From a virus (Duplodnaviria > Heunggongvirae > Uroviricota > Caudoviricetes), in the IMG/VR virus record IMGVR_UViG_3300029415_000001: a stretch of 64,000 bases of DNA; one strand, given 5' to 3'. The position numbers and the translations under genes are program-made. The notes under the pieces are model-generated. The model made no database searches. It saw only the letters and a program-made list of their open reading frames with translations, and was not told the DNA's origin. This document shows positions 30,163 to 55,344 of this stretch, in pieces (positions within the stretch are counted from its first letter, which is position 1; every line of letters starts with the position of its first letter).

Positions 30163-31356
30163 GTGACCTGGGACGATCACAAAAAGAATTTTGCTCGCCT
30201 GGCGCGAGATGGTGGTTACACCATCGCACAGTATGCCGCCGAGTTTAATCTTAACCCTAATACCGCACGTCGTTATCTCCGTGCCTTCAAAGAAGACACC
30301 AGGACTGCGGACAGCCGCAAGCCAAATAAGCCAGTCAGGAAGCCACTAAAAAGCATGATCATTGATCACTCTAATGATCAACATGCAGGTGATCATATTG
30401 CGGCTGAAATAGCGGAAAAACAGAGAGTTAATGCCGTTGTCAGTGCCGCAGTCGAGAATGCGAAGCGCCAAAATAAGCGCATAAATGATTGTTCAGATGA
30501 TCATGACGTGATCACCCGCGCCCACCGGACCTTACGTGATCGCCTGGAACGCGACACCCTGGATGATGATGGTGAACGCTTTGAATTCGAAGCTGGCGAT
30601 TACCTGATAGATAACGTTGAAGCGCGGAAGGCCGCGCGCGCTATGTTGCGTCGGTCCGGGGCCGATGTTCTGGAAACCACTCTTCTTGAAAAGTCTCTTT
30701 CTCATCTCCTTATGCTGGAGAACGCCAGGGATACGTGTATTCGCCTGGTGCAGGAAATGCGCGATCAGCAAAAAGACGATGATGAAGGTACTCCGCCTGA
30801 ATACCGTATCGCGAGCATGCTAAACAGCTGTTCCGCGCAGATAAGCAGCCTGATCAACACCATTTACAGCATCCGGAATAACTATCGAAAAGAAAGCCGG
30901 GAGGCGGAAAAGCACGCTTTGTCTATGGGGCAAGCTGGCATTGTTAAGCTGGCATACGAACGAAAGCGTGAAAATAACTGGTCAGTGCTGGAAGCGGCTG
31001 AATTCATCGAGGCGCATGGAGGGAAAGTGCCGCCCCTGATGCTGGAGCAAATCAAAGCCGATCTGCGTGCTCCTAAGACCAATACCGATGATGAGGAAAA
31101 CCAAACAGCATCTGGCGCTCCATCACTTGAAGATCTGGATAAAATCGCGCGAGAACGGGCCGCCAGCCGCCGCGCTGATGCCGCATTGTGGATTGAGCAT
31201 CGTAGAGAAGAAATTGCCGATATCGTCGATACAGGTGGTTATGGTGATGTCGATGCGGAAGGCATATCAAACGAAGCATGGCTTGAACAGGATCTGGACG
31301 AAGACGAGGAGGAAGACGAAGAAGTTACCCGCAAACTGTACGGGGATGATGATTAA
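30163..31356 (+). CDS. pacA: terminase small subunit / pac-recognition protein PacA
   Basis: 397 aa; contains the pac hexamer cluster within its coding sequence; acidic C-terminus. Confidence 0.8.
30356..30542 (+). other. P1-type pac site: four TGATCA hexamers (30356-30395) and three TGATCA/G hexamers (30498-30542) flanking the cleavage region
   Basis: Hexamers at 30356, 30364, 30375, 30390 and 30498, 30509, 30537; each contains a GATC Dam site. Confidence 0.85.
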
Positions 31357-32840
31357 TGGCCAGAAGTTGCGTAACGGACCCACGTTGGCGCGAGCTGGTG
31401 GCGCTATATCGTTATGACTGGATTGCGGCCGCTGATGTGTTGTTTGGGAAGACACCAACCTGGCAGCAGGATGAGATCATTGAGTCCACGCAGCAGGACG
31501 GCAGTTGGACAAGTGTGACCTCCGGCCATGGTACTGGTAAATCGGATATGACGAGTATCATTGCAATACTCTTCATCATGTTTTTCCCCGGCGCTCGCGT
31601 CATTCTGGTCGCTAACAAAAGACAGCAAGTCCTTGATGGTATTTTCAAATACATAAAGAGCAATTGGGCTACTGCTGTTAGCAGATTCCCGTGGTTGTCG
31701 AAGTATTTCATTCTTACAGAAACGTCTTTTTTTGAGGTGACTGGCAAGGGTGTTTGGACAATATTGATAAAGTCCTGTCGCCCCGGAAATGAGGAGGCGT
31801 TGGCTGGTGAACACGCCGATCATCTCTTGTATATCATCGACGAAGCGTCGGGTGTGAGTGATAAAGCATTCAGTGTGATAACAGGTGCGCTGACCGGTAA
31901 GGATAACCGTATTCTGCTTCTTTCCCAGCCTACGCGACCTTCAGGCTATTTCTACGATTCACACCACAGACTAGCTATTCGCCCGGGAAATCCTGATGGA
32001 TTGTTTACTGCGATAATACTGAATAGTGAAGAATCTCCGCTTGTAGATGCAAAATTTATACGAGCAAAACTTGCGGAGTATGGCGGTCGTGATAACCCCA
32101 TGTACATGATCAAAGTACGTGGTGAATTCCCCAAATCGCAAGATGGCTTTCTTCTTGGTCGTGATGAGGTTGAGCGGGCGACGCGGCGAAAGGTCAAGAT
32201 TGCCAAAGGATGGGGCTGGCTTGCATGTGTGGACGTTGCTGGTGGTACGGGACGGGATAAGTCCGTTATCAATATCATGATGGTGTCCGGCCAGCGAAAT
32301 AAACGCCGTGTAATCAACTATCGAATGCTGGAATACACAGACGTTACAGAAACGCAGCTTGCCGCCAAAATTTTCGCAGAATGTAATCCTGAGCGATTCC
32401 CAAATATCACCATAGCGATAGACGGCGATGGCCTGGGTAAAGCAACGGCGGATCTGATGTACGAGTATTATGGTATTACCGTACAGCGTATACGCTGGGG
32501 TAAAAAGATGCATAGCCGTGAAGATAAGAGCCTGTACTTTGATAAACGTGCTTATGCCAACGTTCAAGCCGCAGAGGCCGTAAAATCTGGTCGTATGAGA
32601 CTGGATAAGGGTAATGAAACTATTGAGGAAGCGTCGAAAATCCCTGTAGGGATTAACTCCGCAGGTCAATGGAAGGTGATGAGTAAGGAGGATATGAAGA
32701 AAAAACTCAACCTGCACTCACCAGACCATTGGGATACATATTGTTTCGCTATGCTGGCGGATTATGTTCCCCAGGATGAAGTGCTTAGCGTCGAAGACGA
32801 AGCGCAGGTTGATGAAGCTCTGGCATGGCTTAATGAATGA
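31356..32840 (+). CDS. pacB: terminase large subunit PacB
   Basis: 494 aa; Walker A-like GHGTGKS and Walker B-like [10 protein letters not shown]; ATGA-coupled to pacA. Confidence 0.8.
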
Positions 32841-32843
32841 ATA

Positions 32844-32860
32844 TTTGCTCTAATAAATTG
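32844..32860 (+). promoter_or_regulatory. C1 operator (TTTGCTCTAATAAATTG)
   Basis: 15/17 consensus match just downstream of pacB. Confidence 0.6.
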
Positions 32861-33397
32861 TGTTTTTTAACTACCGATGTTACATTGAGCCTGACCTCTT
32901 GCGCCTTGAGGCATTTTCGGTTTATGCTTATCAGGCACCTCATTAAAACGGGTGCCGGGATTGGCCTCCCGCTTAAGTCTAAGGCGATACAGACGCCGCT
33001 CGCGTCTTTTTTTTGTATCGGCGTACACGCACACCTCTACAATGGTGGGCTGTATGGGGCTACCTTCGGGTAGGCTGGTTACCTTGGACGCCAGTAAGGC
33101 CAACTCCGTACAGTCCACCGCCAGCAAGATTGGTCTCTTCTGCGGTGGTTACATACCAACGTCTAAGGAGGCTGCCAATATGGCTACTATCCCTACCCCA
33201 ACTCATCCTGAATTTATCTGGCGCTTTTACTCCTGCCAAAAACGTCACTATCACTTCGTTATTGCACCGACAGAAGATGAGGCCCGCTCTCAGCTTCCTG
33301 ACGCCCCATGTATTTTCTCTGCCCGTTTTTCCACTGATTCACGCAATTCTCTCAGTTACTGGTGCCTCCCTGTTAACGCTTCTGCTCAGGAGGGACT

Positions 33398-34516
33398 ATG
33401 AGAACGTCATTAGTCACCCGTGAAGAGATGATCGAGGCAATTGAACAGCACACTGCCTGTATCAGTACCAGGGATATACCAGGCGTTATTGCCAACTACT
33501 TCATGATCACCAAACAACTTTACCGGAGAAAGGACAAGAACGCGGTTCACCGTATCCTGTTGTCTGATATCCGCGAATACCTGCTCGAACAGGGTCATCT
33601 GAATTACGTAACCGCCGCAGCCGAAGCACGCAAGGAGGCACACAGAATGAAAGCAACTAACGTTAAATCAGAAAAAATTCATGCACCTTCAGTTCAAGAA
33701 TCGGAGCTGGTGGTTGTTCAGAATCAGTCTGATGAAATTCCCGTTCTGGAATGGCAGGGAGTGCGTGTAGTGACAACCGAGACTCTTGCTAGAGGGTATG
33801 GGACAGAAACAATCCGTATTCGCCAAAATCATCATGAGAACAAAGTACGCTTTGTTGAAGGGAAGCACTTTTTCAAAGTTGAAGGAGAATCATTGCGCGA
33901 GTTGAAGCACAGAGTAGCTTTAAACTACTCTGTAAAAATTGCTCGCAATGTTCGCTCACTCACCCTCTGGACAGAACGCGGCGCAGCCCGCCACGCTAAA
34001 ATGCTCGAAACCGATCAGGCATGGGCATTCTTTGAAAAACTGGAAGACAGCTACTTCCGACAAAAAGAACAGCAACCGATCGCAATCCCCCAGACGCTTC
34101 CTGAAGCCCTACGCCTGGCTGCCGAACTGGCTGAACAAAAGCAACTTCTGGAACAGAAAGCCCACCAGCTAAATCAGCAGCTGGTGGCCGCCGCTCCTAA
34201 AGTCGATTTTGCCGACCGGGTATCAGTAGCTAAAGGGATCCTGATTGGGAATTTTGCAAAGGTTGTTGGACTTAAACAAAACGCGCTGTTTGTCTGGTTA
34301 CGGGAGAACGGCATCCTGATAGCGTCCGGTGGACGTAAAAATGTGCCGTTCCAGCAGTACATCAACGCGGGGTATTTCACGGTGAAAGAAGTGGTGCTGG
34401 ATGATGAAGATGGCTACCAGATACGGTTGACGCCTCAATTAACGGGTAAAGGCCAGCAGTGGTTGACGCGTAAACTGCTCGATGCTGGCTTGTTAAAACC
34501 GGTGGCGGCTGAATAA
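33398..34516 (+). CDS. phage antirepressor-like protein (KilAC/Ant C-terminal domain type)
   Basis: 372 aa; GGAGG RBS; central PVLEWQGVRVVTTETLARGYG (ORF6N/Bro-N-like) and C-terminal QTLPEALRLAAELAEQKQLLEQKAHQL...DFADR (KilAC-type signature). Confidence 0.6.
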   Translation: MRTSLVTREEMIEAIEQHTACISTRDIPGVIANYFMITKQLYRRKDKNAVHRILLSDIREYLLEQGHLNYVTAAAEARKEAHRMKATNVKSEKIHAPSVQESELVVVQNQSDEIPVLEWQGVRVVTTETLARGYGTETIRIRQNHHENKVRFVEGKHFFKVEGESLRELKHRVALNYSVKIARNVRSLTLWTERGAARHAKMLETDQAWAFFEKLEDSYFRQKEQQPIAIPQTLPEALRLAAELAEQKQLLEQKAHQLNQQLVAAAPKVDFADRVSVAKGILIGNFAKVVGLKQNALFVWLRENGILIASGGRKNVPFQQYINAGYFTVKEVVLDDEDGYQIRLTPQLTGKGQQWLTRKLLDAGLLKPVAAE

Positions 34517-34548
34517 TGGAAGAATGCCCGGTTGATGCCGGGCATAAT

Positions 34549-35400
34549 TTATTGCGCGCTTTCGGGGTTGTCGTTTACTGGCTGCCCCTTCTTGGTTTTA
34601 CGGCTGCGCGTAACTGATGCGGCTGACTTAACCTTTTTCTCTTCGCGAGTGATGGCAATTTGTTTTTTTACATTTTCAATATCTGCCAGGCGATATATTT
34701 TTGCTTGCGGCCAGCGGTCGCAGATGATCGGTTCTATGGAGTCATAAAGGCTAAATTTTGCTTTTTCGAATTCACCGTTGATGATAATTCCATCACGGAG
34801 AGTTTCATCGCAGATAAACACGCCACACAGTGGCACATGGTAACTAACTGATTTACCATCATTGTAGTTAGGGCTACTGGAAATGTAGTGGACGCGCAGC
34901 ATTGTTTCGCTAAAGCCGTGTACGCGCATACGGAATTTTTCATCCTCCGGGTACTGCCTCATTAGCTCTTTTGTTGCTTCCAGGTTCTCTATGTATTTCG
35001 CACTGTGCTCATTGAGCCCCGCGCTTTTTTGGATGCGAATGTCCTTATCAATCAGATGAATAATGCGGCCAGCGGTCATGTTGACGCTGTTCACAGCTTC
35101 TGTCTGATAAGTTGTAACCTTACGTACACCGCGAAGGATGTTAGGCACTGGATATAAAATAGTCTTTGGGATATTGAGGTCTGGGTACTGTTCCAGTTCC
35201 CGCGCCATTAAAGTCCATTTATCAATTTCAGCCTGAATGCTGTCAGTTTCTTTGAACGGTAGAACGACAACCGGGCGTACAGGACGACCGTCGCTGGCTG
35301 TATCAACGTGTTGGGCGCGTGCAACAGCTTTTTTTAGAAAGAGATCCCTGAAGCTGACGAACTCCTGGTACAGTTGTTCGCCGTAGACATAATTTATCAT
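34549..35400 (-). CDS. c1: C1 repressor of lysis (P1 immunity repressor)
   Basis: 283 aa; recognised as P1 C1 from sequence; adjacent coi and multiple operators. Confidence 0.9.
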   Translation of the reverse strand: MINYVYGEQLYQEFVSFRDLFLKKAVARAQHVDTASDGRPVRPVVVLPFKETDSIQAEIDKWTLMARELEQYPDLNIPKTILYPVPNILRGVRKVTTYQTEAVNSVNMTAGRIIHLIDKDIRIQKSAGLNEHSAKYIENLEATKELMRQYPEDEKFRMRVHGFSETMLRVHYISSSPNYNDGKSVSYHVPLCGVFICDETLRDGIIINGEFEKAKFSLYDSIEPIICDRWPQAKIYRLADIENVKKQIAITREEKKVKSAASVTRSRKTKKGQPVNDNPESAQ

Positions 35401-35495
35401 TGATCCTCCTCCAGAATTGACATGGTCAATAACGCCCGGCTGAGAAAACCGGTCATTACTGACCTATATTATAGAGGGATCAAACAAAAATAATA

Positions 35496-35512
35496 GATTT
35501 ATTAGTGCATTT
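35496..35512 (-). promoter_or_regulatory. C1 operator-like site between coi and c1
   Basis: Minus-strand AATGCACTAATAAATCT, 13/17 match. Confidence 0.5.
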
Positions 35513-35720
35513 ATTGTGAGTCTAACTGGTTAGTTGCCATGAGATATTCGATTGTGTCAGTGAGGTCATCCAAGTCGTCTTGGGTGATGCGGTACTCCTG
35601 ATTGGATATCTTTGAGTAGTGTTCAGCAATGGCGCGGGCAGCGTCGGTTTCGGCAGGGTCTACAGATAAAGCGTTAGAGCAATGTCTAACGTCGTCGATG
35701 GTTGGTTGAATGAAAGCCAT
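35511..35720 (-). CDS. coi: Coi (C1 inactivator)
   Basis: 69 aa ORF immediately upstream of c1 on the same strand. Confidence 0.75.
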   Translation of the reverse strand: MAFIQPTIDDVRHCSNALSVDPAETDAARAIAEHYSKISNQEYRITQDDLDDLTDTIEYLMATNQLDSQ

Positions 35721-35958: not shown

Positions 35959-35975
35959 TAATTTATTAGAGCAAT
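35959..35975 (-). promoter_or_regulatory. C1 operator (minus strand ATTGCTCTAATAAATTA)
   Basis: 16/17 consensus match in the coi/c1 promoter region. Confidence 0.7.
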
Positions 35976-36041: not shown

Positions 36042-36058
36042 ATTGCTCTAATAATTCT
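36042..36058 (+). promoter_or_regulatory. C1 operator (ATTGCTCTAATAATTCT)
   Basis: 14/17 consensus match; divergent partner of 35959..35975. Confidence 0.65.
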
Positions 36059-36553: not shown

Positions 36554-37585
36554 ATGTCCAATTTACTGACCGTACACCAAAATTTGCCTGCATTACCGGT
36601 CGATGCAACGAGTGATGAGGTTCGCAAGAACCTGATGGACATGTTCAGGGATCGCCAGGCGTTTTCTGAGCATACCTGGAAAATGCTTCTGTCCGTTTGC
36701 CGGTCGTGGGCGGCATGGTGCAAGTTGAATAACCGGAAGTGGTTTCCCGCAGAACCTGAAGATGTTCGCGATTATCTTCTATATCTTCAGGCGCGCGGTC
36801 TGGCAGTGAAAACTATCCAGCAACATTTGGGCCAGCTAAATATGCTTCATCGTCGGTCCGGTCTGCCACGACCAAGTGACAGCAATGCTGTTTCACTGGT
36901 CATGCGACGGATCCGAAAAGAAAACGTTGATGCCGGTGAACGTGCAAAACAGGCACTAGCGTTCGAACGCACTGATTTCGACCAGGTTCGTTCACTCATG
37001 GAAAATAGCGATCGCTGCCAGGATATACGTAATCTGGCATTTCTGGGGATTGCTTATAACACCCTGTTACGTATAGCCGAAATTGCCAGGATCAGGGTTA
37101 AAGATATCTCACGTACTGACGGTGGGAGAATGTTAATCCATATTGGCAGAACGAAAACGCTGGTTAGCACCGCAGGTGTAGAGAAGGCACTTAGCCTGGG
37201 GGTAACTAAACTGGTCGAGCGATGGATTTCTGTCTCTGGTGTGGCTGATGATCCGAATAACTACTTGTTTTGCCGGGTCAGAAAAAATGGTGTTGCCTCG
37301 CCATCACCCACCAGCCAGCTATCAACTCGCGCCCTGGAAGGGATTTTTGAAGCAACTCATCAATTGATTTACGGCGCTAAGGATGACTCTGGTCAGAGAT
37401 ACCTGGCCTGGTCTGGACACAGTGCCCGTGTCGGAGCCGCGCGAGATATGGCCCGCGCTGGAGTTTCAATACCGGAGATCATGCAAGCTGGTGGCTGGAC
37501 CAATGTAAATATTGTCATGAACTATATCCGTAACCTGGATAGTGAAACAGGGGCAATGGTGCGCCTGCTGGAAGATGGCGATTAG
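36554..37585 (+). CDS. cre: Cre tyrosine recombinase
   Basis: 343 aa; MSNLLTVHQNLPALPVDATSDEVRKNLMDMFRDRQAFSEHTWKMLLSVCRSW...; catalytic region HSARVGAARDMARAGVSIPEIMQAGGWTNVNIVMNYIRNLD; loxP 436 bp upstream. Confidence 0.98.
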   Translation: MSNLLTVHQNLPALPVDATSDEVRKNLMDMFRDRQAFSEHTWKMLLSVCRSWAAWCKLNNRKWFPAEPEDVRDYLLYLQARGLAVKTIQQHLGQLNMLHRRSGLPRPSDSNAVSLVMRRIRKENVDAGERAKQALAFERTDFDQVRSLMENSDRCQDIRNLAFLGIAYNTLLRIAEIARIRVKDISRTDGGRMLIHIGRTKTLVSTAGVEKALSLGVTKLVERWISVSGVADDPNNYLFCRVRKNGVASPSPTSQLSTRALEGIFEATHQLIYGAKDDSGQRYLAWSGHSARVGAARDMARAGVSIPEIMQAGGWTNVNIVMNYIRNLDSETGAMVRLLEDGD

Positions 37586-38916: not shown

Positions 38917-39585
38917 GTGGCTTTTCTTTTTTGTAGGGGCGCTATGGATAAGAAAATATGCGTTGTTTCGATGAGCGTCGGCAAACCGGCGTCAATGACT
39001 GCCGCATGGATCAACAATGAGCTGATAATGGCTGAGCGGACCAGCTACCCTGAACGCCGCCGCGATATGGAACTCCAGCTGCTGCGCGAATTGCGAGAAA
39101 AAGAGGAAAAGGGTTTTATCGTGCTGGTGGAAGAGGAAAACAGCTTTATTACCGGTCGAGTTGGCCAGCGTGTAAGGTTGCGTGATCCCTTCATGAACGG
39201 CAGACCGGTACTGATTGAAGCAATGCAGATTTACAAGGAACTGGAACGCCAGAAAGCGATCAAGTTACCGCGCAAGGAATCCGGCAAATACATCCTTCAC
39301 CAAAGCATCTTCGATTCCGAACATGACAAAAAAGGCGATGAATTTTTCAACATCAACTGGAGCGAAATAACGACAGAGCACGTTCTGACGTTGTTATGCT
39401 GCTTCGCAACGGAATACAACAACGTTGCAAGCTCCGACTACATCAGGGCAATGGCTGGAGAAGTTGAGGCACGCCAGGAACCATCGTTACTAAGCCCTCT
39501 GATTAACATAATTCGCGGAACCCAAACGCTGGCACAAAAACAGGTGCCTAAGGGAGTATTAACAGGAAAAGGAAATTATCTATAA
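38917..39585 (+). CDS. hypothetical protein at the position of P1 mat
   Basis: 222 aa ORF; G+C composition like backbone. Confidence 0.45.
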   Translation: MAFLFCRGAMDKKICVVSMSVGKPASMTAAWINNELIMAERTSYPERRRDMELQLLRELREKEEKGFIVLVEEENSFITGRVGQRVRLRDPFMNGRPVLIEAMQIYKELERQKAIKLPRKESGKYILHQSIFDSEHDKKGDEFFNINWSEITTEHVLTLLCCFATEYNNVASSDYIRAMAGEVEARQEPSLLSPLINIIRGTQTLAQKQVPKGVLTGKGNYL

Positions 39586-39641
39586 ACGTCAATGCATTAG
39601 GGTATACTTCTCCGTAGAACTATAAGTAAATGGAGTAAGTA

Positions 39642-40949
39642 ATGAGCGAATATGTTGAGTTAGCATACGCTGCCGCTACAAGCAGGCTTTGTCTATTTAC
39701 CGGGACTGGCTTTTCAAAGGCAGTCTCGAACGGTGAAGCTCCAACGTGGAAGGAACTATTAAAAAAAGTTTGCAGCAAAGTTCACAATGCCAAAAAGTTG
39801 GAAGACACGTTATTCCCTGATGATAAACCACCAGCACTGAGTCTTGAAGAAGCCGCACAAATACTATCTTTGAAGCTCAATATTGAGGGTAAGTCGATTT
39901 ATGATGAAATTGTTGACATCATATCTCCAATTCAACTTGGAGAAGGTATATCAAATATAAAAGACTTTTTCCAAAAAAACTCATTCCGTGTCATTACAAC
40001 AAATTATGACAAATTGGCTGAATGCTTGGTTGGAGATGAGAGAGTTCAGTCTATCACTCCAGGATTACCAGTTCCGAAGTATCGTTCTAATGTGAAAATA
40101 TATCATGTTCATGGCTCTATTGACTCACCAAAAAATATGGTTGTCACTTCTGAAGACTACTTTAGGTTTATAAACTCTAACACTTATTTTTCACGAAAAC
40201 TGAGTACAATGCTGCATGAAAATACAGTTGCGATATTAGGATATTCTTTAAGCGACACAAACCTTAAAGCAATTATAAATGATTACAAAACCTTCTCGAA
40301 AGGTAATGCGCTATGCTCTAATATATTTTTCATTTCTCGCAGCAAAGTAAGCCAAGACATGAAGGATTATTATTTTTATTGTTTTGGGATACGAGTAATT
40401 GATAAAACTGAAATAGATTGTTTCTTTGAGCGTCTGAGTAGTAAAATGGTGTTGATTGAAGACATCATGGCAAGAGCCAGAGAAAGTATAAAAAGAGTTG
40501 TTTCAGGGGCTTTTAACTATAGGGATGAATATCTCAAATTAGAGGATTCTTTTTACCAAATAACATCTTCTATTATGTCGGAAGGTTTCGATTGGAGTGA
40601 CAATAAAGTTGTTGGTTTTTTTAAAAGGCTAATCGAACAAAAAAGAGAATTAACAAGAAAAGATGGGGCGTGGGAACAATATGAGCATCTTGCAAAATGG
40701 CTCATATATTTTGGAAGCATCATAGAAATTACTGACACTAAGTATGAAAATGTATATTTAGAGGCAGTCGAATACTCAATGTCCAATATGAGCAAAGAAA
40801 GGCGGTTAGGTTATTCGTGGCATGCTTATAGAGCTTGGGAAACGCGATGGTCTTCAATCATTGCTTCAAATCGATTAATTATAAAAAAACACATCGAAGA
40901 CCTTGGCGTGCTGGATGACGCCAATTCTATAGTGAAAAATATAGTGTAA
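39642..40949 (+). CDS. SIR2-like (sirtuin-fold, predicted NAD+-binding/NADase) protein with uncharacterised helical C-terminal domain; candidate single-gene anti-phage or abortive-infection effector
   Basis: 435 aa; LCLFTGTGFSKAVSNGEAPTWKELL (SIR2 Rossmann start), VITTNYDKLAE, YHVHGS (candidate catalytic His), VAILGYSLSDTNL; gene is markedly AT-rich relative to both flanks. Confidence 0.75.
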   Translation: MSEYVELAYAAATSRLCLFTGTGFSKAVSNGEAPTWKELLKKVCSKVHNAKKLEDTLFPDDKPPALSLEEAAQILSLKLNIEGKSIYDEIVDIISPIQLGEGISNIKDFFQKNSFRVITTNYDKLAECLVGDERVQSITPGLPVPKYRSNVKIYHVHGSIDSPKNMVVTSEDYFRFINSNTYFSRKLSTMLHENTVAILGYSLSDTNLKAIINDYKTFSKGNALCSNIFFISRSKVSQDMKDYYFYCFGIRVIDKTEIDCFFERLSSKMVLIEDIMARARESIKRVVSGAFNYRDEYLKLEDSFYQITSSIMSEGFDWSDNKVVGFFKRLIEQKRELTRKDGAWEQYEHLAKWLIYFGSIIEITDTKYENVYLEAVEYSMSNMSKERRLGYSWHAYRAWETRWSSIIASNRLIIKKHIEDLGVLDDANSIVKNIV

Positions 40950-40971
40950 TTGAAACTCTGCAAACATTTAA

Positions 40972-40991
40972 CGGGCAGCTACAACTGCCCG
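40972..40991. terminator. hairpin between the convergent SIR2-like gene and lxc-like gene
   Basis: CGGGCAG-CTACAA-CTGCCCG followed by A/T-rich sequence. Confidence 0.45.
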
Positions 40992-41000
40992 ATATATAAA

Positions 41001-41249
41001 TCAATCCGCATTCAGGAGCAATGCATTATCTATGATGATTTGCTCCCATTCTTCGAATGCCCGGTCGCGGACGCCCTGGGGAACGCTGTTAGTTTTGAAA
41101 TCGACGACCGTACGCCATTTCCCATCCGGACGGTACATACGCAGAGCTTTACTTCCCCCTTCCCTGCGCACCTCAACGTTATGCTTGTCAGCAAACTCTT
41201 GTAATGCTCGTAGCGTCCCATGCTTTACTGTGTAGTATCGCTTTTTCAA
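41001..41249 (-). CDS. small protein at the position of P1 lxc
   Basis: 82 aa; assignment by position upstream of darB-like gene. Confidence 0.5.
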   Translation of the reverse strand: MKKRYYTVKHGTLRALQEFADKHNVEVRREGGSKALRMYRPDGKWRTVVDFKTNSVPQGVRDRAFEEWEQIIIDNALLLNAD

Positions 41250-54015: not shown

Positions 54016-55344
54016 CTGATGAATCCCCTAATGATTTTGGTAAAAATCATTAAGTTAAGGTGGATACACATCTTGTCATATGATCAAATGGTTTCGCGAA
54101 AAATCAATAATCAGACAACAAGATGTGCGAACTCGATATTTTACACGACTCTCTTTACCAATTCTGCCCCGAATTACACTTAAAACGACTCAACAGCTTA
54201 ACGTTGGCTTGCCACGCATTACTTGACTGTAAAACTCTCACTCTTACCGAACTTGGCCGTAACCTGCCAACCAAAGCGAGAACAAAACATAACATCAAAC
54301 GAATCGACCGATTGTTAGGTAATCGTCACCTCCACAAAGAGCGACTCGCTGTATACCGTTGGCATGCTAGCTTTATCTGTTCGGGCAATACGATGCCCAT
54401 TGTACTTGTTGACTGGTCTGATATTCGTGAGCAAAAACGACTTATGGTATTGCGAGCTTCAGTCGCACTACACGGTCGTTCTGTTACTCTTTATGAGAAA
54501 GCGTTCCCGCTTTCAGAGCAATGTTCAAAGAAAGCTCATGACCAATTTCTAGCCGACCTTGCGAGCATTCTACCGAGTAACACCACACCGCTCATTGTCA
54601 GTGATGCTGGCTTTAAAGTGCCATGGTATAAATCCGTTGAGAAGCTGGGTTGGTACTGGTTAAGTCGAGTAAGAGGAAAAGTACAATATGCAGACCTAGG
54701 AGCGGAAAACTGGAAACCTATCAGCAACTTACATGATATGTCATCTAGTCACTCAAAGACTTTAGGCTATAAGAGGCTGACTAAAAGCAATCCAATCTCA
54801 TGCCAAATTCTATTGTATAAATCTCGCTCTAAAGGCCGAAAAAATCAGCGCTCGACACGGACTCATTGTCACCACCCGTCACCTAAAATCTACTCAGCGT
54901 CGGCAAAGGAGCCATGGGTTCTAGCAACTAACTTACCTGTTGAAATTCGAACACCCAAACAACTTGTTAATATCTATTCGAAGCGAATGCAGATTGAAGA
55001 AACCTTCCGAGACTTGAAAAGTCCTGCCTACGGACTAGGCCTACGCCATAGCCGAACGAGCAGCTCAGAGCGTTTTGATATCATGCTGCTAATCGCCCTG
55101 ATGCTTCAACTAACATGTTGGCTTGCGGGCGTTCATGCTCAGAAACAAGGTTGGGACAAGCACTTCCAGGCTAACACAGTCAGAAATCGAAACGTACTCT
55201 CAACAGTTCGCTTAGGCATGGAAGTTTTGCGGCATTCTGGCTACACAATAACAAGGGAAGACTTACTCGTGGCTGCAACCCTACTAGCTCAAAATTTATT
55301 CACACATGGTTACGCTTTGGGGAAATTATGAGGGGATCTCTCAG
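54016..55344 (+). mobile_element. IS10 (1329 bp) with 9-bp target-site duplication TGCTCTGCA
   Basis: Ends CTGATGAATCCCCTAATGATTTTGG and GGGGAAATTATGAGGGGATCTCTCAG; TSD at 54007..54015 and 55345..55353. Confidence 0.95.
54123..55331 (+). CDS. IS10 transposase
   Basis: 402 aa; MCELDILHDSLYQFCPELHLKRLNSLTLACHALLD... recognised as IS10/Tn10 transposase. Confidence 0.95.
   Translation: MCELDILHDSLYQFCPELHLKRLNSLTLACHALLDCKTLTLTELGRNLPTKARTKHNIKRIDRLLGNRHLHKERLAVYRWHASFICSGNTMPIVLVDWSDIREQKRLMVLRASVALHGRSVTLYEKAFPLSEQCSKKAHDQFLADLASILPSNTTPLIVSDAGFKVPWYKSVEKLGWYWLSRVRGKVQYADLGAENWKPISNLHDMSSSHSKTLGYKRLTKSNPISCQILLYKSRSKGRKNQRSTRTHCHHPSPKIYSASAKEPWVLATNLPVEIRTPKQLVNIYSKRMQIEETFRDLKSPAYGLGLRHSRTSSSERFDIMLLIALMLQLTCWLAGVHAQKQGWDKHFQANTVRNRNVLSTVRLGMEVLRHSGYTITREDLLVAATLLAQNLFTHGYALGKL

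What the first reader, a model, noticed from the sequence alone, without database searches (positions are those of the whole stretch)
33398..34516. Antirepressor-like gene convergent with c1, between pacB and the immunity region
The 372-aa protein has an ORF6N/Bro-N-like segment and a KilAC/Ant-type C-terminus (LPEALRLAAELAEQK...). I do not recall a gene between pacB and c1 in P1, so this may be an extra immunity-circuit component or heterologous antirepressor. Its position next to c1 and an operator-like site suggests it could modulate C1 or a co-resident prophage repressor.
Basis: partly seen in the sequence, partly recalled or inferred. Interest (0 to 1): 0.4.

Follow-up and report, generated by a model that had tools for sequence, protein, structure and literature searches.

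The report
Second immI antirepressor cassette in P1-like phage
The gene is a real antirepressor gene, and it is the last gene of a complete extra copy of phage P1's "immI" immunity operon (operator, antisense RNA, icd, ant) inserted between pacB and c1; the insert is common in P1-like plasmids and has been mentioned in print, so it is a modest finding.

Summary
Window 33398-34516 (+) encodes a 372-aa protein with Pfam ORF6N (E 2e-19) and ANT/KilAC (E 4e-31) domains. P1 has only 24 bp between pacB and c1.

The ORF is the last gene of a 1.7-kb insertion (32841-34548) that reproduces the P1 immI operon piece by piece:
- a C1-operator-like site overlapping a promoter-like site;
- a leader carrying the a1/b1 target sites (Rfam isrK);
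- a C4 antisense RNA (Rfam, 75.9 bits);
- a2/b2 target sites over the icd ribosome-binding site;
- an Icd-like ORF, 80% identical to P1 Icd, joined to ant by an ATGA overlap;
- a conserved internal Ant2-like start;
- a terminator-like hairpin.

The recognition loops of this C4 differ from those of the canonical immI found in a 97-99.6% identical relative. Across 14 allele combinations in related loci, the loops change together with both target sites.

The most likely function is a second antirepressor switch controlled by its own antisense RNA and acting on C1. The action on C1 is inferred, not shown.

About 44% of P1-like plasmids in PLSDB carry a cassette at this site. RCS47 annotation and Venturini 2019 mention the ant gene. 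I rate it a new member of a known kind, of modest interest.

The parts
32841..34548 (+). Whole 1708-bp insertion between the pacB stop and the c1 stop. It replaces the 24-bp spacer of P1.
   Evidence: Comparison with the P1 junction. The same insert is present in vB_EcoM-673R5 (99.7%), RCS47 (93%) and JL22 (89%). 290 PLSDB plasmids carry at least 80% of it.
32844..32860 (+). C1-operator-like site TTTGCTCTAATAAATTG, the counterpart of P1 Oc4/Op51.
   Evidence: 2 mismatches to the consensus. An operator-like site in the same orientation lies 191-216 nt upstream of every C4 examined. It marks the 5' boundary of cassettes at every insertion site.
32858..32886 (+). Promoter-like site TTGTGT-17-TACATT whose -35 overlaps the operator, the counterpart of P1 P2c4.
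   Evidence: Read from the sequence. Its offsets from the operator match the annotated P1 P2c4 promoter. It was not picked up by the stricter consensus scan.
32899..32928 (+). Second promoter-like site TTGCGC-18-TATGCT, 7 nt upstream of the start of the isrK match, the counterpart of P1 P1c4.
   Evidence: Read from the sequence. Its offset from the operator (+55/+79) matches P1 P1c4 (+55/+78). Inference only.
32935..33012 (+). Leader RNA of the Rfam isrK family. It carries a1 (UUGGCCU, 32961-32967, in a hairpin loop), b1 (GUCUAAGG, 32977-32984) and a terminator-like hairpin (32991-33007) followed by a T run.
   Evidence: Rfam RF01394 scores 60.8 bits against a gathering score of 50. Terminator scan. 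Complementarity to the C4 loops. Fold.
33038..33125 (+). C4 antisense RNA gene. The b' loop is CCUUGGAC (33082-33089) and the a' junction is AGGCCAA (33097-33103).
   Evidence: Rfam RF01695 scores 75.9 bits against a gathering score of 45. The fold is -41.6 kcal/mol, z = -3.5. 11 of 23 pairs keep pairing through changes on both sides across 8 variants.
33130..33171 (+). Target sites a2 (UUGGUCU, 33130-33136) and b2 (GUCUAAGG, 33161-33168). b2 overlaps the icd Shine-Dalgarno sequence AAGGAGG (33165-33171).
   Evidence: Complementarity search. Cognate duplex energies are -8.6 and -13.9 kcal/mol, against -1.9 and about -4 with P1 or P7-type targets.
33180..33401 (+). icd-like ORF of 73 aa. Its stop overlaps the ant start (ATGA).
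   Evidence: 80% identical to P1 Icd. NCBIfam NF033153 phage_ICD_like scores 49.8 bits against a cutoff of 25. Sequence.
33398..34516 (+). ant (Ant1-like, 372 aa): a P1-Ant1-like N module, a central ORF6N module and a KilAC/ANT C module.
33647..34516 (+). Probable in-frame Ant2-like product (289 aa) starting at Met84, preceded by AAGGAGG.
   Evidence: The same Shine-Dalgarno sequence, spacer and ATG as the annotated P1 ant2 start. Inference from the sequence.
34524..34545 (.). GC-rich hairpin between the convergent ant and c1 stops, a possible bidirectional terminator. It forms the 3' end of the cassette.
   Evidence: Terminator scan. The same hairpin ends cassettes at other insertion sites.

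Best explanation
The ORF is the antirepressor gene of a second, self-contained immI-type operon carried by this P1-like phage-plasmid in addition to the canonical sim-c4-icd-ant-kilA immI.

Proposed working, by analogy with P1 immI. Transcription starts at two promoter-like sites, and the upstream one is overlapped by a C1 operator. The transcript contains a leader with decoy sites a1/b1, the C4 RNA, and the icd-ant message. Mature C4 pairs through its a' junction and b' loop with a2/b2, which covers the icd ribosome-binding site. With icd untranslated, the translationally coupled ant (ATGA overlap) is not made, so a lysogen stays repressed. If the message is present without enough cognate C4, Icd and Ant (Ant1- and Ant2-like forms) are made and Ant inactivates the C1 repressor. 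This would happen when this phage enters a cell whose resident prophage lacks this C4 type.

This cassette's C4 loops are orthogonal to those of the canonical immI, so the two switches are controlled independently. That would widen both the immunity a lysogen provides and the range of resident immunities the infecting phage can break.

Shown here: the anatomy, the homologies, the complementarity and its covariation. Inferred: processing of C4, translational repression and coupling, and C1 as the target of Ant.
For: - Domains and homology. The protein has ORF6N and ANT/KilAC domains and matches PHROG Ant. It is 55% identical to P1 Ant1, with a near-identical C module and a homologous N module.
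- Operon parts. C4 RNA scores 75.9 bits and the isrK-type leader 60.8 bits, both above Rfam gathering scores. Icd is 80% identical to P1 Icd and passes NF033153. The ATGA overlap and the conserved Ant2 start with its Shine-Dalgarno sequence are read from the sequence.
- Operator and promoters. The C1 operator and two promoter-like sites lie at the same offsets as in annotated P1 immI. An operator-like site is conserved in all ~78 cassettes examined.
- Antisense pairing. a'/b' are complementary to a1/b1 and to a2/b2, and b2 overlaps the icd Shine-Dalgarno sequence.
- Covariation. 14 a'/b' allele combinations, 5 of them at the pacB-c1 site across 56 loci, each have matched changes in both target sites.
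- Orthogonality. Cognate duplexes are -8.4 to -9.1 kcal/mol (a) and -11 to -14 (b). Window C4 against P1 or P7-type targets gives -1.9 and about -4.
- Co-occurrence. Relative 673R5 is 97-99.6% identical to the window over 47 kb. It carries both this cassette and a canonical immI with different C4 loops. With one exception, co-resident cassettes in the other multi-cassette IMG/VR contigs and samples also differ in at least one loop.
- Published mechanism. The P1 mechanism (C4 blocks Ant synthesis; Ant1/Ant2 antagonise C1) is taken from PMC8546580 and PMC12197685.
Against: - No experiment exists for this cassette.
- The part of P1 Ant that contacts C1 is not known to me. The central module here (ORF6N) is not the one in P1 Ant1, so the target could differ.
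- a2 and b1/b2 each include one G-U pair in the window allele.
- The promoter-like sites are weak matches and were missed by the stricter consensus scan.
- The leader belongs to the isrK family. In Gifsy-1 the short IsrK RNA activates translation of the downstream antirepressor (PMC4825925), so regulation may be more complex than plain C4 repression.
- The canonical immI of this particular genome lies outside the 64-kb window. Its presence is inferred from the close relative.
Confidence: 0.75

Rival explanations
1. The cassette's Ant does not act on C1. It acts on the repressor of other, co-resident prophages such as lambdoid or Gifsy-like ones, or it acts as a DNA-binding regulator through its ORF6N module, as AnrP does when it switches on antQ in Gifsy-1.
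For: The central module is swapped relative to P1 Ant1 and is the most variable part of the protein (63-100% identity, or replaced, while the N and C modules stay 94-100%). The leader belongs to the Gifsy-1 isrK family. In Gifsy-1 the isrK-orf45-anrP operon has the same small-ORF/ATGA coupling (PMC4825925). Similar leader/C4 sequences occur on E. coli chromosomes.
Against: The N and C modules are P1-Ant-like. Some cassettes at the same site carry the P1-type central module instead (L074). Every cassette is headed by a C1 operator, which ties it to the C1 regulon. No antQ-like target was looked for or seen next to it.
Confidence: 0.15
2. The selected function is the C4 RNA as a superinfection-exclusion device that silences the ant of incoming phages of the same type. 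icd-ant would be passengers or decaying remnants.
For: C4 loop alleles are diverse and differ between co-resident cassettes. The 673R5 record shows a truncated ant.
Against: ant and icd are intact here and in 63 distinct full-length homologues, with strongly conserved N and C modules. The a2/b2 targets co-vary with C4, which only matters if icd-ant expression is being controlled. The 673R5 truncation sits in a record whose c1 is also split, so it looks like sequencing error.
Confidence: 0.07
3. The insertion is a non-functional relic of recombination between P1-like genomes.
For: Cassettes occur at several sites, and apparent recombinants between sites exist (L044, L083).
Against: Every functional element is intact. 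Three-way covariation is seen. The cassette is present in about 44% of P1-like PLSDB plasmids and in 279 of 5426 complete E. coli genomes.
Confidence: 0.03

Closest known systems
Phage P1/P7 immI operon (Oc4/Op51 - P51a/b - a1 b1 - c4 - a2 b2 - icd - ant1/ant2)
   Same: Same order of parts and the same spacing of operator and promoter-like sites. C4 RNA of the same Rfam family. a'/b' complementarity to two pairs of targets, with b2 over the icd Shine-Dalgarno sequence. A 73-aa Icd that is 80% identical. ATGA coupling to ant. A nested Ant2 start. N and C modules of Ant are homologous.
   Different: It lies between pacB and c1, convergent with c1, instead of between sim and kilA-repL. The C4 scaffold and loops differ (a' AGGCCAA, b' CCUUGGAC against P1 CUGUCAA, UCACUAAC). 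The leader matches Rfam isrK rather than c4-a1b1 (20.5 bits, below the cutoff of 46.7). The central module of Ant is ORF6N, which P1 Ant1 lacks. The cassette ends in its own terminator hairpin.
Gifsy-1 isrK-orf45-anrP locus of Salmonella (PMC4825925)
   Same: The leader passes the Rfam isrK gathering score and has a Rho-independent terminator. A small ORF overlaps the antirepressor start by ATGA. A processed ~80-nt RNA is reported from the region downstream of isrK.
   Different: It is located in a plasmid prophage under a C1 operator. The small ORF is a conserved Icd homologue of 73 aa, not the 45-aa ORF whose amino-acid sequence varies. No antQ is seen nearby. The published Gifsy-1 model is activation by short IsrK, not C4-type repression. 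Whether the two descriptions are two views of one mechanism was not tested.
ant gene between pacB and c1 of RCS47 and pTZ20_1P (NC_042128 annotation; Venturini et al. 2019, PMC6906374)
   Same: The same insertion at the same site. The proteins are 88% identical. [quoted passage not shown]
   Different: RCS47 carries a different C4 specificity allele (a' GUCUCAA, b' CCUUUGAC) and a divergent ORF6N segment. The RNA parts and the operator are not in the RCS47 annotation or in the passages of Venturini 2019 that I read.

Membership tests
P1-type immI operon | C4 antisense RNA gene upstream of icd-ant | tested here: met
   Rfam RF01695 scores 75.9 bits against a gathering score of 45. The structure is supported by compensatory changes.
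P1-type immI operon | C4 loops a'/b' complementary to a2/b2 at the icd ribosome-binding site, and to a1/b1 upstream | tested here: met
   7-nt and 8-nt complementary runs at 32961-67, 32977-84, 33130-36 and 33161-68. They co-vary across 14 allele combinations.
P1-type immI operon | icd ORF translationally coupled to ant; nested ant1/ant2 starts | tested here: met
   Icd is 80% identical to P1 Icd and passes NF033153. The ATGA overlap is read from the sequence. The Shine-Dalgarno sequence and ATG at Met84 are conserved with P1 ant2. This is sequence-level evidence only.
P1-type immI operon | C1-controlled operator at the operon promoter | tested here: met
   An operator-like 17-mer with 2 mismatches overlaps the -35 of a promoter-like site, at the same offsets as P1 Oc4/P2c4. 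Binding by C1 was not testable.
P1-type immI operon | Genomic position between sim and kilA-repL | tested here: not met
   It lies between pacB and c1. The canonical position is occupied by a separate immI in relative 673R5.
P1-type immI operon | Ant binds and inactivates C1 repressor | not testable with these tools
   Supported only by homology of the N and C modules to P1 Ant1.
Pfam ANT / KilAC (PF03374) | Score above the Pfam gathering threshold | tested here: met
   107.9 bits against 25.3, residues 260-361.
Pfam ORF6N (PF10543) | Score above the Pfam gathering threshold | tested here: met
   70.1 bits against 27.8, residues 116-202.
   No Bro-N hit even at E<=1.
Rfam isrK (RF01394) | Score above the gathering threshold, with a terminator hairpin | tested here: met
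   60.8 bits against 50. Terminator-like site at 32991-33007 followed by a T run.
Rfam isrK (RF01394) | The short RNA activates the downstream antirepressor in trans, and antQ is the output | not testable with these tools
   Described for Gifsy-1 (PMC4825925). No antQ was searched for here.

The most novel reading that the evidence does not exclude
P1-like phage-plasmids carry one to several interchangeable 'immI cassettes'. Each is bounded by a C1 operator and a terminator hairpin, and each has its own C4 'barcode' built from combinatorial a'/b' loop alleles (at least 14 combinations seen). Co-resident cassettes are kept orthogonal. Together they would form a multi-lock system that sets which P1-like elements can superinfect or displace which others. 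The hypervariable central module of Ant would be a second axis of specificity, and the cassettes would also serve as recombination substrates that rearrange the genome.
Probability: 0.45. Interest if true: 0.55.

Novelty: new member of a known kind. Interest (0 to 1): 0.3.

Why it matters
P1-like phage-plasmids are frequent carriers of resistance genes in E. coli and Salmonella. Which of them can coexist with, exclude or induce one another depends on their immunity systems. Classical work knew two immI specificities, P1 and P7. Here nearly half of the P1-like plasmids sampled carry an additional immI module at pacB-c1, with several specificities of its own. This gives concrete, testable predictions for superinfection immunity, prophage induction by incoming relatives, and plasmid incompatibility-like behaviour. 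For the single gene that was flagged, the result is mostly a clarification: it is an Ant paralogue in a known type of circuit.

Tried and rejected
- Bro-N reading of the central domain: rejected. Pfam gives ORF6N only.
- 'Operator next to c1': the operator-like site that belongs to this gene's operon is at the pacB end (32844-32860), not at the c1 end.
- Sequence search of the PDB with Ant: no hit at E<=0.1. NCBIfam has no model for Ant.
- Structure prediction and the large protein searches were not run. They could not decide the open question, which is the target of Ant.
- Literature searches for a description of a second immI, or of C4 at pacB-c1, found only Venturini 2019 and the RCS47 annotation. 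The classical papers (PMC196329) are not held.
- The consensus promoter scan did not report the two promoter-like sites. They rest on positional correspondence with the annotated P1 promoters.
- The isrK leader fold is not more stable than shuffled sequence (z = -0.96). Its assignment rests on the Rfam score and on the a1/b1 covariation.
- The MAFFT alignment of C4 variants (A1) was slightly out of register for the P1-type scaffold. I therefore located C4 with nhmmer and read the loops with a structure-anchored pattern instead of building a covariance model.

Full report
**1. Observation**

The window is a P1-like (Punavirus) genome. Its layout around the finding is pacA (30163-31356), pacB (31356-32840), the flagged ORF (33398-34516, + strand, 372 aa), c1 (34549-35400, - strand), coi (35511-35720, - strand) and cre (36554-37585).

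The ORF has Pfam ORF6N (residues 116-202, E 2e-19) and ANT/KilAC (residues 260-361, E 4e-31). Both score well above the curated cutoffs. It also matches PHROG 63 'anti-repressor Ant' over its full length (1e-130). No Bro-N match was found.

In P1 the pacB stop and the c1 stop are 24 bp apart with no gene between them. The window therefore has a 1708-bp insertion (32841-34548).

**2. What the insertion contains**

Rfam finds two RNAs upstream of the ORF, both above their gathering scores:
- a C4 antisense RNA (33038-33125, 75.9 bits);
- an isrK-family element (32935-33012, 60.8 bits).

Between C4 and the ORF lies a 73-aa ORF (33180-33401). It is 80% identical to P1 Icd and passes NCBIfam phage_ICD_like. 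Its stop overlaps the ant ATG (ATGA).

Directly after the pacB stop is a C1-operator-like 17-mer (32844-32860, 2 mismatches). Two promoter-like sites follow:
- TTGTGT-17-TACATT at 32858-32886, with its -35 overlapping the operator;
- TTGCGC-18-TATGCT at 32899-32928, 7 nt upstream of the start of the isrK match.

Both lie at the same offsets from the operator as the annotated P2c4 and P1c4 promoters of P1 immI.

Met84 of the protein is preceded by AAGGAGG, exactly as at the annotated P1 ant2 start. An Ant2-like product is therefore likely.

A GC-rich hairpin (34524-34545) sits between the convergent ant and c1 stops.

The insertion therefore reproduces P1's immI operon part by part.

**3. Antisense recognition**

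In P1, the C4 junction a' (CUGUCAA) and loop b' (UCACUAAC) are complementary to a1/b1 upstream and to a2/b2 at the icd ribosome-binding site (annotation; sequences).

In the window's C4, the equivalent positions read AGGCCAA (33097-33103) and CCUUGGAC (33082-33089). Their complements are found at four places:
- a1 at 32961-32967, in a hairpin loop of the leader;
- b1 at 32977-32984;
- a2 at 33130-33136;
- b2 at 33161-33168, overlapping the icd Shine-Dalgarno sequence.

The predicted C4 fold is more stable than shuffled sequence (z = -3.5). Across eight variants, 11 of 23 pairs keep pairing through changes on both sides.

**4. Comparative evidence**

I fetched 78 IMG/VR loci encoding relatives of the protein. 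I located C4 in them with a profile and read off the loops and the best complementary sites.

Fourteen a'/b' combinations were found. In every one, both target pairs carry the matching change.

At the pacB-c1 site alone (56 loci) there are five alleles:
- the window type;
- all four combinations of a' GUCUCAA or GUUCCAA with b' CCUUUGAC or CCUUUUGC.

Duplex energies are -8.4 to -9.1 kcal/mol (a) and -11 to -14 kcal/mol (b) for cognate pairs. For the window's C4 against P1-type or P7-type targets they are -1.9 and about -4. This three-way covariation is the strongest evidence that the antisense control is functional and allele-specific.

**5. Is it an extra copy?**

The window holds only one C4 and does not reach the canonical immI position.

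Phage vB_EcoM-673R5 is collinear with the window and 97-99.6% identical over about 47 kb. It carries both this cassette and a canonical sim-c4-icd-ant1-kilA-repL region whose C4 has P7-like loops.

Among the other IMG/VR contigs and samples in which more than one cassette was captured, the co-resident C4 alleles differ in at least one loop. The one exception is an apparent tandem duplication in L065.

**6. The protein**

Against P1 Ant1, the N-terminal ~95 residues are clearly homologous and the C-terminal KilAC part is nearly identical. The centre does not align meaningfully, and P1 Ant1 has no ORF6N hit.

Among 63 distinct full-length relatives, the N and C modules are 94-100% identical to the window protein. 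The central module ranges from 63% to 100%, or is replaced by the P1-type centre. Ant is thus a three-module mosaic with a hypervariable centre.

No solved structure is detectable by sequence.

**7. Distribution and mobility**

- In PLSDB, 591 plasmids match the end of pacB, and 261 of them (about 44%) carry the pacB-cassette junction.
- 290 plasmids carry at least 80% of the cassette.
- 279 of 5426 complete E. coli genomes carry at least 80% of it.

Related cassettes sit at several other places in P1-like genomes. In 673R5 coordinates these are about 10.7 kb, 38.3-38.8 kb and 39.6-40.9 kb, with further cassettes whose one mapped flank lies near 48-50 kb. One RCS47-type (B2-scaffold) cassette occupies the canonical site in front of kilA. 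All begin exactly at a C1 operator and end at a terminator hairpin.

**8. Mechanism**

I take the P1 mechanism from the literature. C4 RNA blocks Ant synthesis by pairing around the ribosome-binding site, and Ant1/Ant2 antagonise C1 (PMC8546580, PMC12197685).

On that basis, the most likely reading is a second Ant switch. It is wired to C1 through its operator and gated by its own C4.
- Shown here: the parts, the homologies, the complementarity and the covariation.
- Inferred: C4 processing, translational repression and coupling, and C1 as the target of Ant.

Two points limit confidence. The isrK-type leader recalls the Gifsy-1 system, where short IsrK activates the coupled orf45-anrP (PMC4825925), so the leader may modulate C4 action. 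The swapped central module leaves open a different or broader repressor target.

**9. Novelty**

The gene is annotated as 'ant' in RCS47. PGAP annotates it as an antirepressor next to an Icd-like protein in hundreds of plasmids. Venturini et al. 2019 mention an ant gene and two short ORFs between pacB and c1 (PMC6906374).

I found no description of it as a full immI paralogue with its own C4 specificities. It is a new member of a known kind. Interest is modest for the gene itself. It is somewhat higher for the multi-cassette, multi-allele picture.

Noticed in passing
window 33042-33155 (C4 RNA region); L085 1402-1515: PGAP annotates an 'ash family protein' pseudogene exactly over the C4 RNA gene. 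Pfam Phage_ASH (PF10554) matches the translation of this region (39.6 bits, residues 20-88 of ORF 32952-33401). The C-terminal part of that protein family may be partly a translation of conserved C4 RNA genes, or Ash genes may overlap C4-like RNAs.
   Followed up: partly
L014, L017, L020, L034, L037, L042, L059, L070, L076-L082 (IMG/VR loci): icd-ant cassettes of the same build occur at several other sites in P1-like genomes, in either orientation. In 673R5 coordinates these are about 10.7 kb, 38.3-38.8 kb and 39.6-40.9 kb, plus cassettes with one mapped flank near 48-50 kb. Most carry a palindromic (bivalent-looking) C1 operator at the 5' end. L017 has two divergent cassettes back to back.
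   Followed up: partly
L044 and L083 (two contigs of one IMG/VR sample): Their flanks look like reciprocal products of recombination between a cassette at pacB-c1 and one at the ~10.7-kb site. The left flank of one site is joined to the right flank of the other. This suggests the cassettes mediate genome rearrangements.
   Followed up: no
L001 / L084 (vB_EcoM-673R5, ON470615.2) 33518-35517: In this otherwise near-identical phage record, ant is truncated (called 'Roi', 257 aa) and c1 is split into three CDS. pacA is also split into Pac1 and Pac2. These are probably sequencing frameshifts, not biology.
   Followed up: no
window, 17 sites (e.g. 4992-5019, 35495-35511, 35959-35975, 36042-36058): There are 17 C1-operator-like 17-mers in the window against 0.27 expected. 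They include an overlapping inverted pair at 4992-5019. This is as expected for a P1 regulon.
   Followed up: no
window 54061-54130 (-); 5674-5824 and 7828-7900 (+): Rfam finds RNA-OUT, which implies an IS10 element, and three tRNA genes.
   Followed up: no
window 5927-7819 and 39579-41001: These two stretches do not align with the otherwise collinear relative 673R5. They are variable regions. The second coincides with one of the sites where other genomes carry an icd-ant cassette, but the window has no C4 there.
   Followed up: no
L084 21673-27624 (673R5; corresponds to window ~21.5-27.5 kb): The relative is annotated with a type I restriction-modification system (HsdR/S/M) just upstream of phd-doc. 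I did not check this in the window itself.
   Followed up: no
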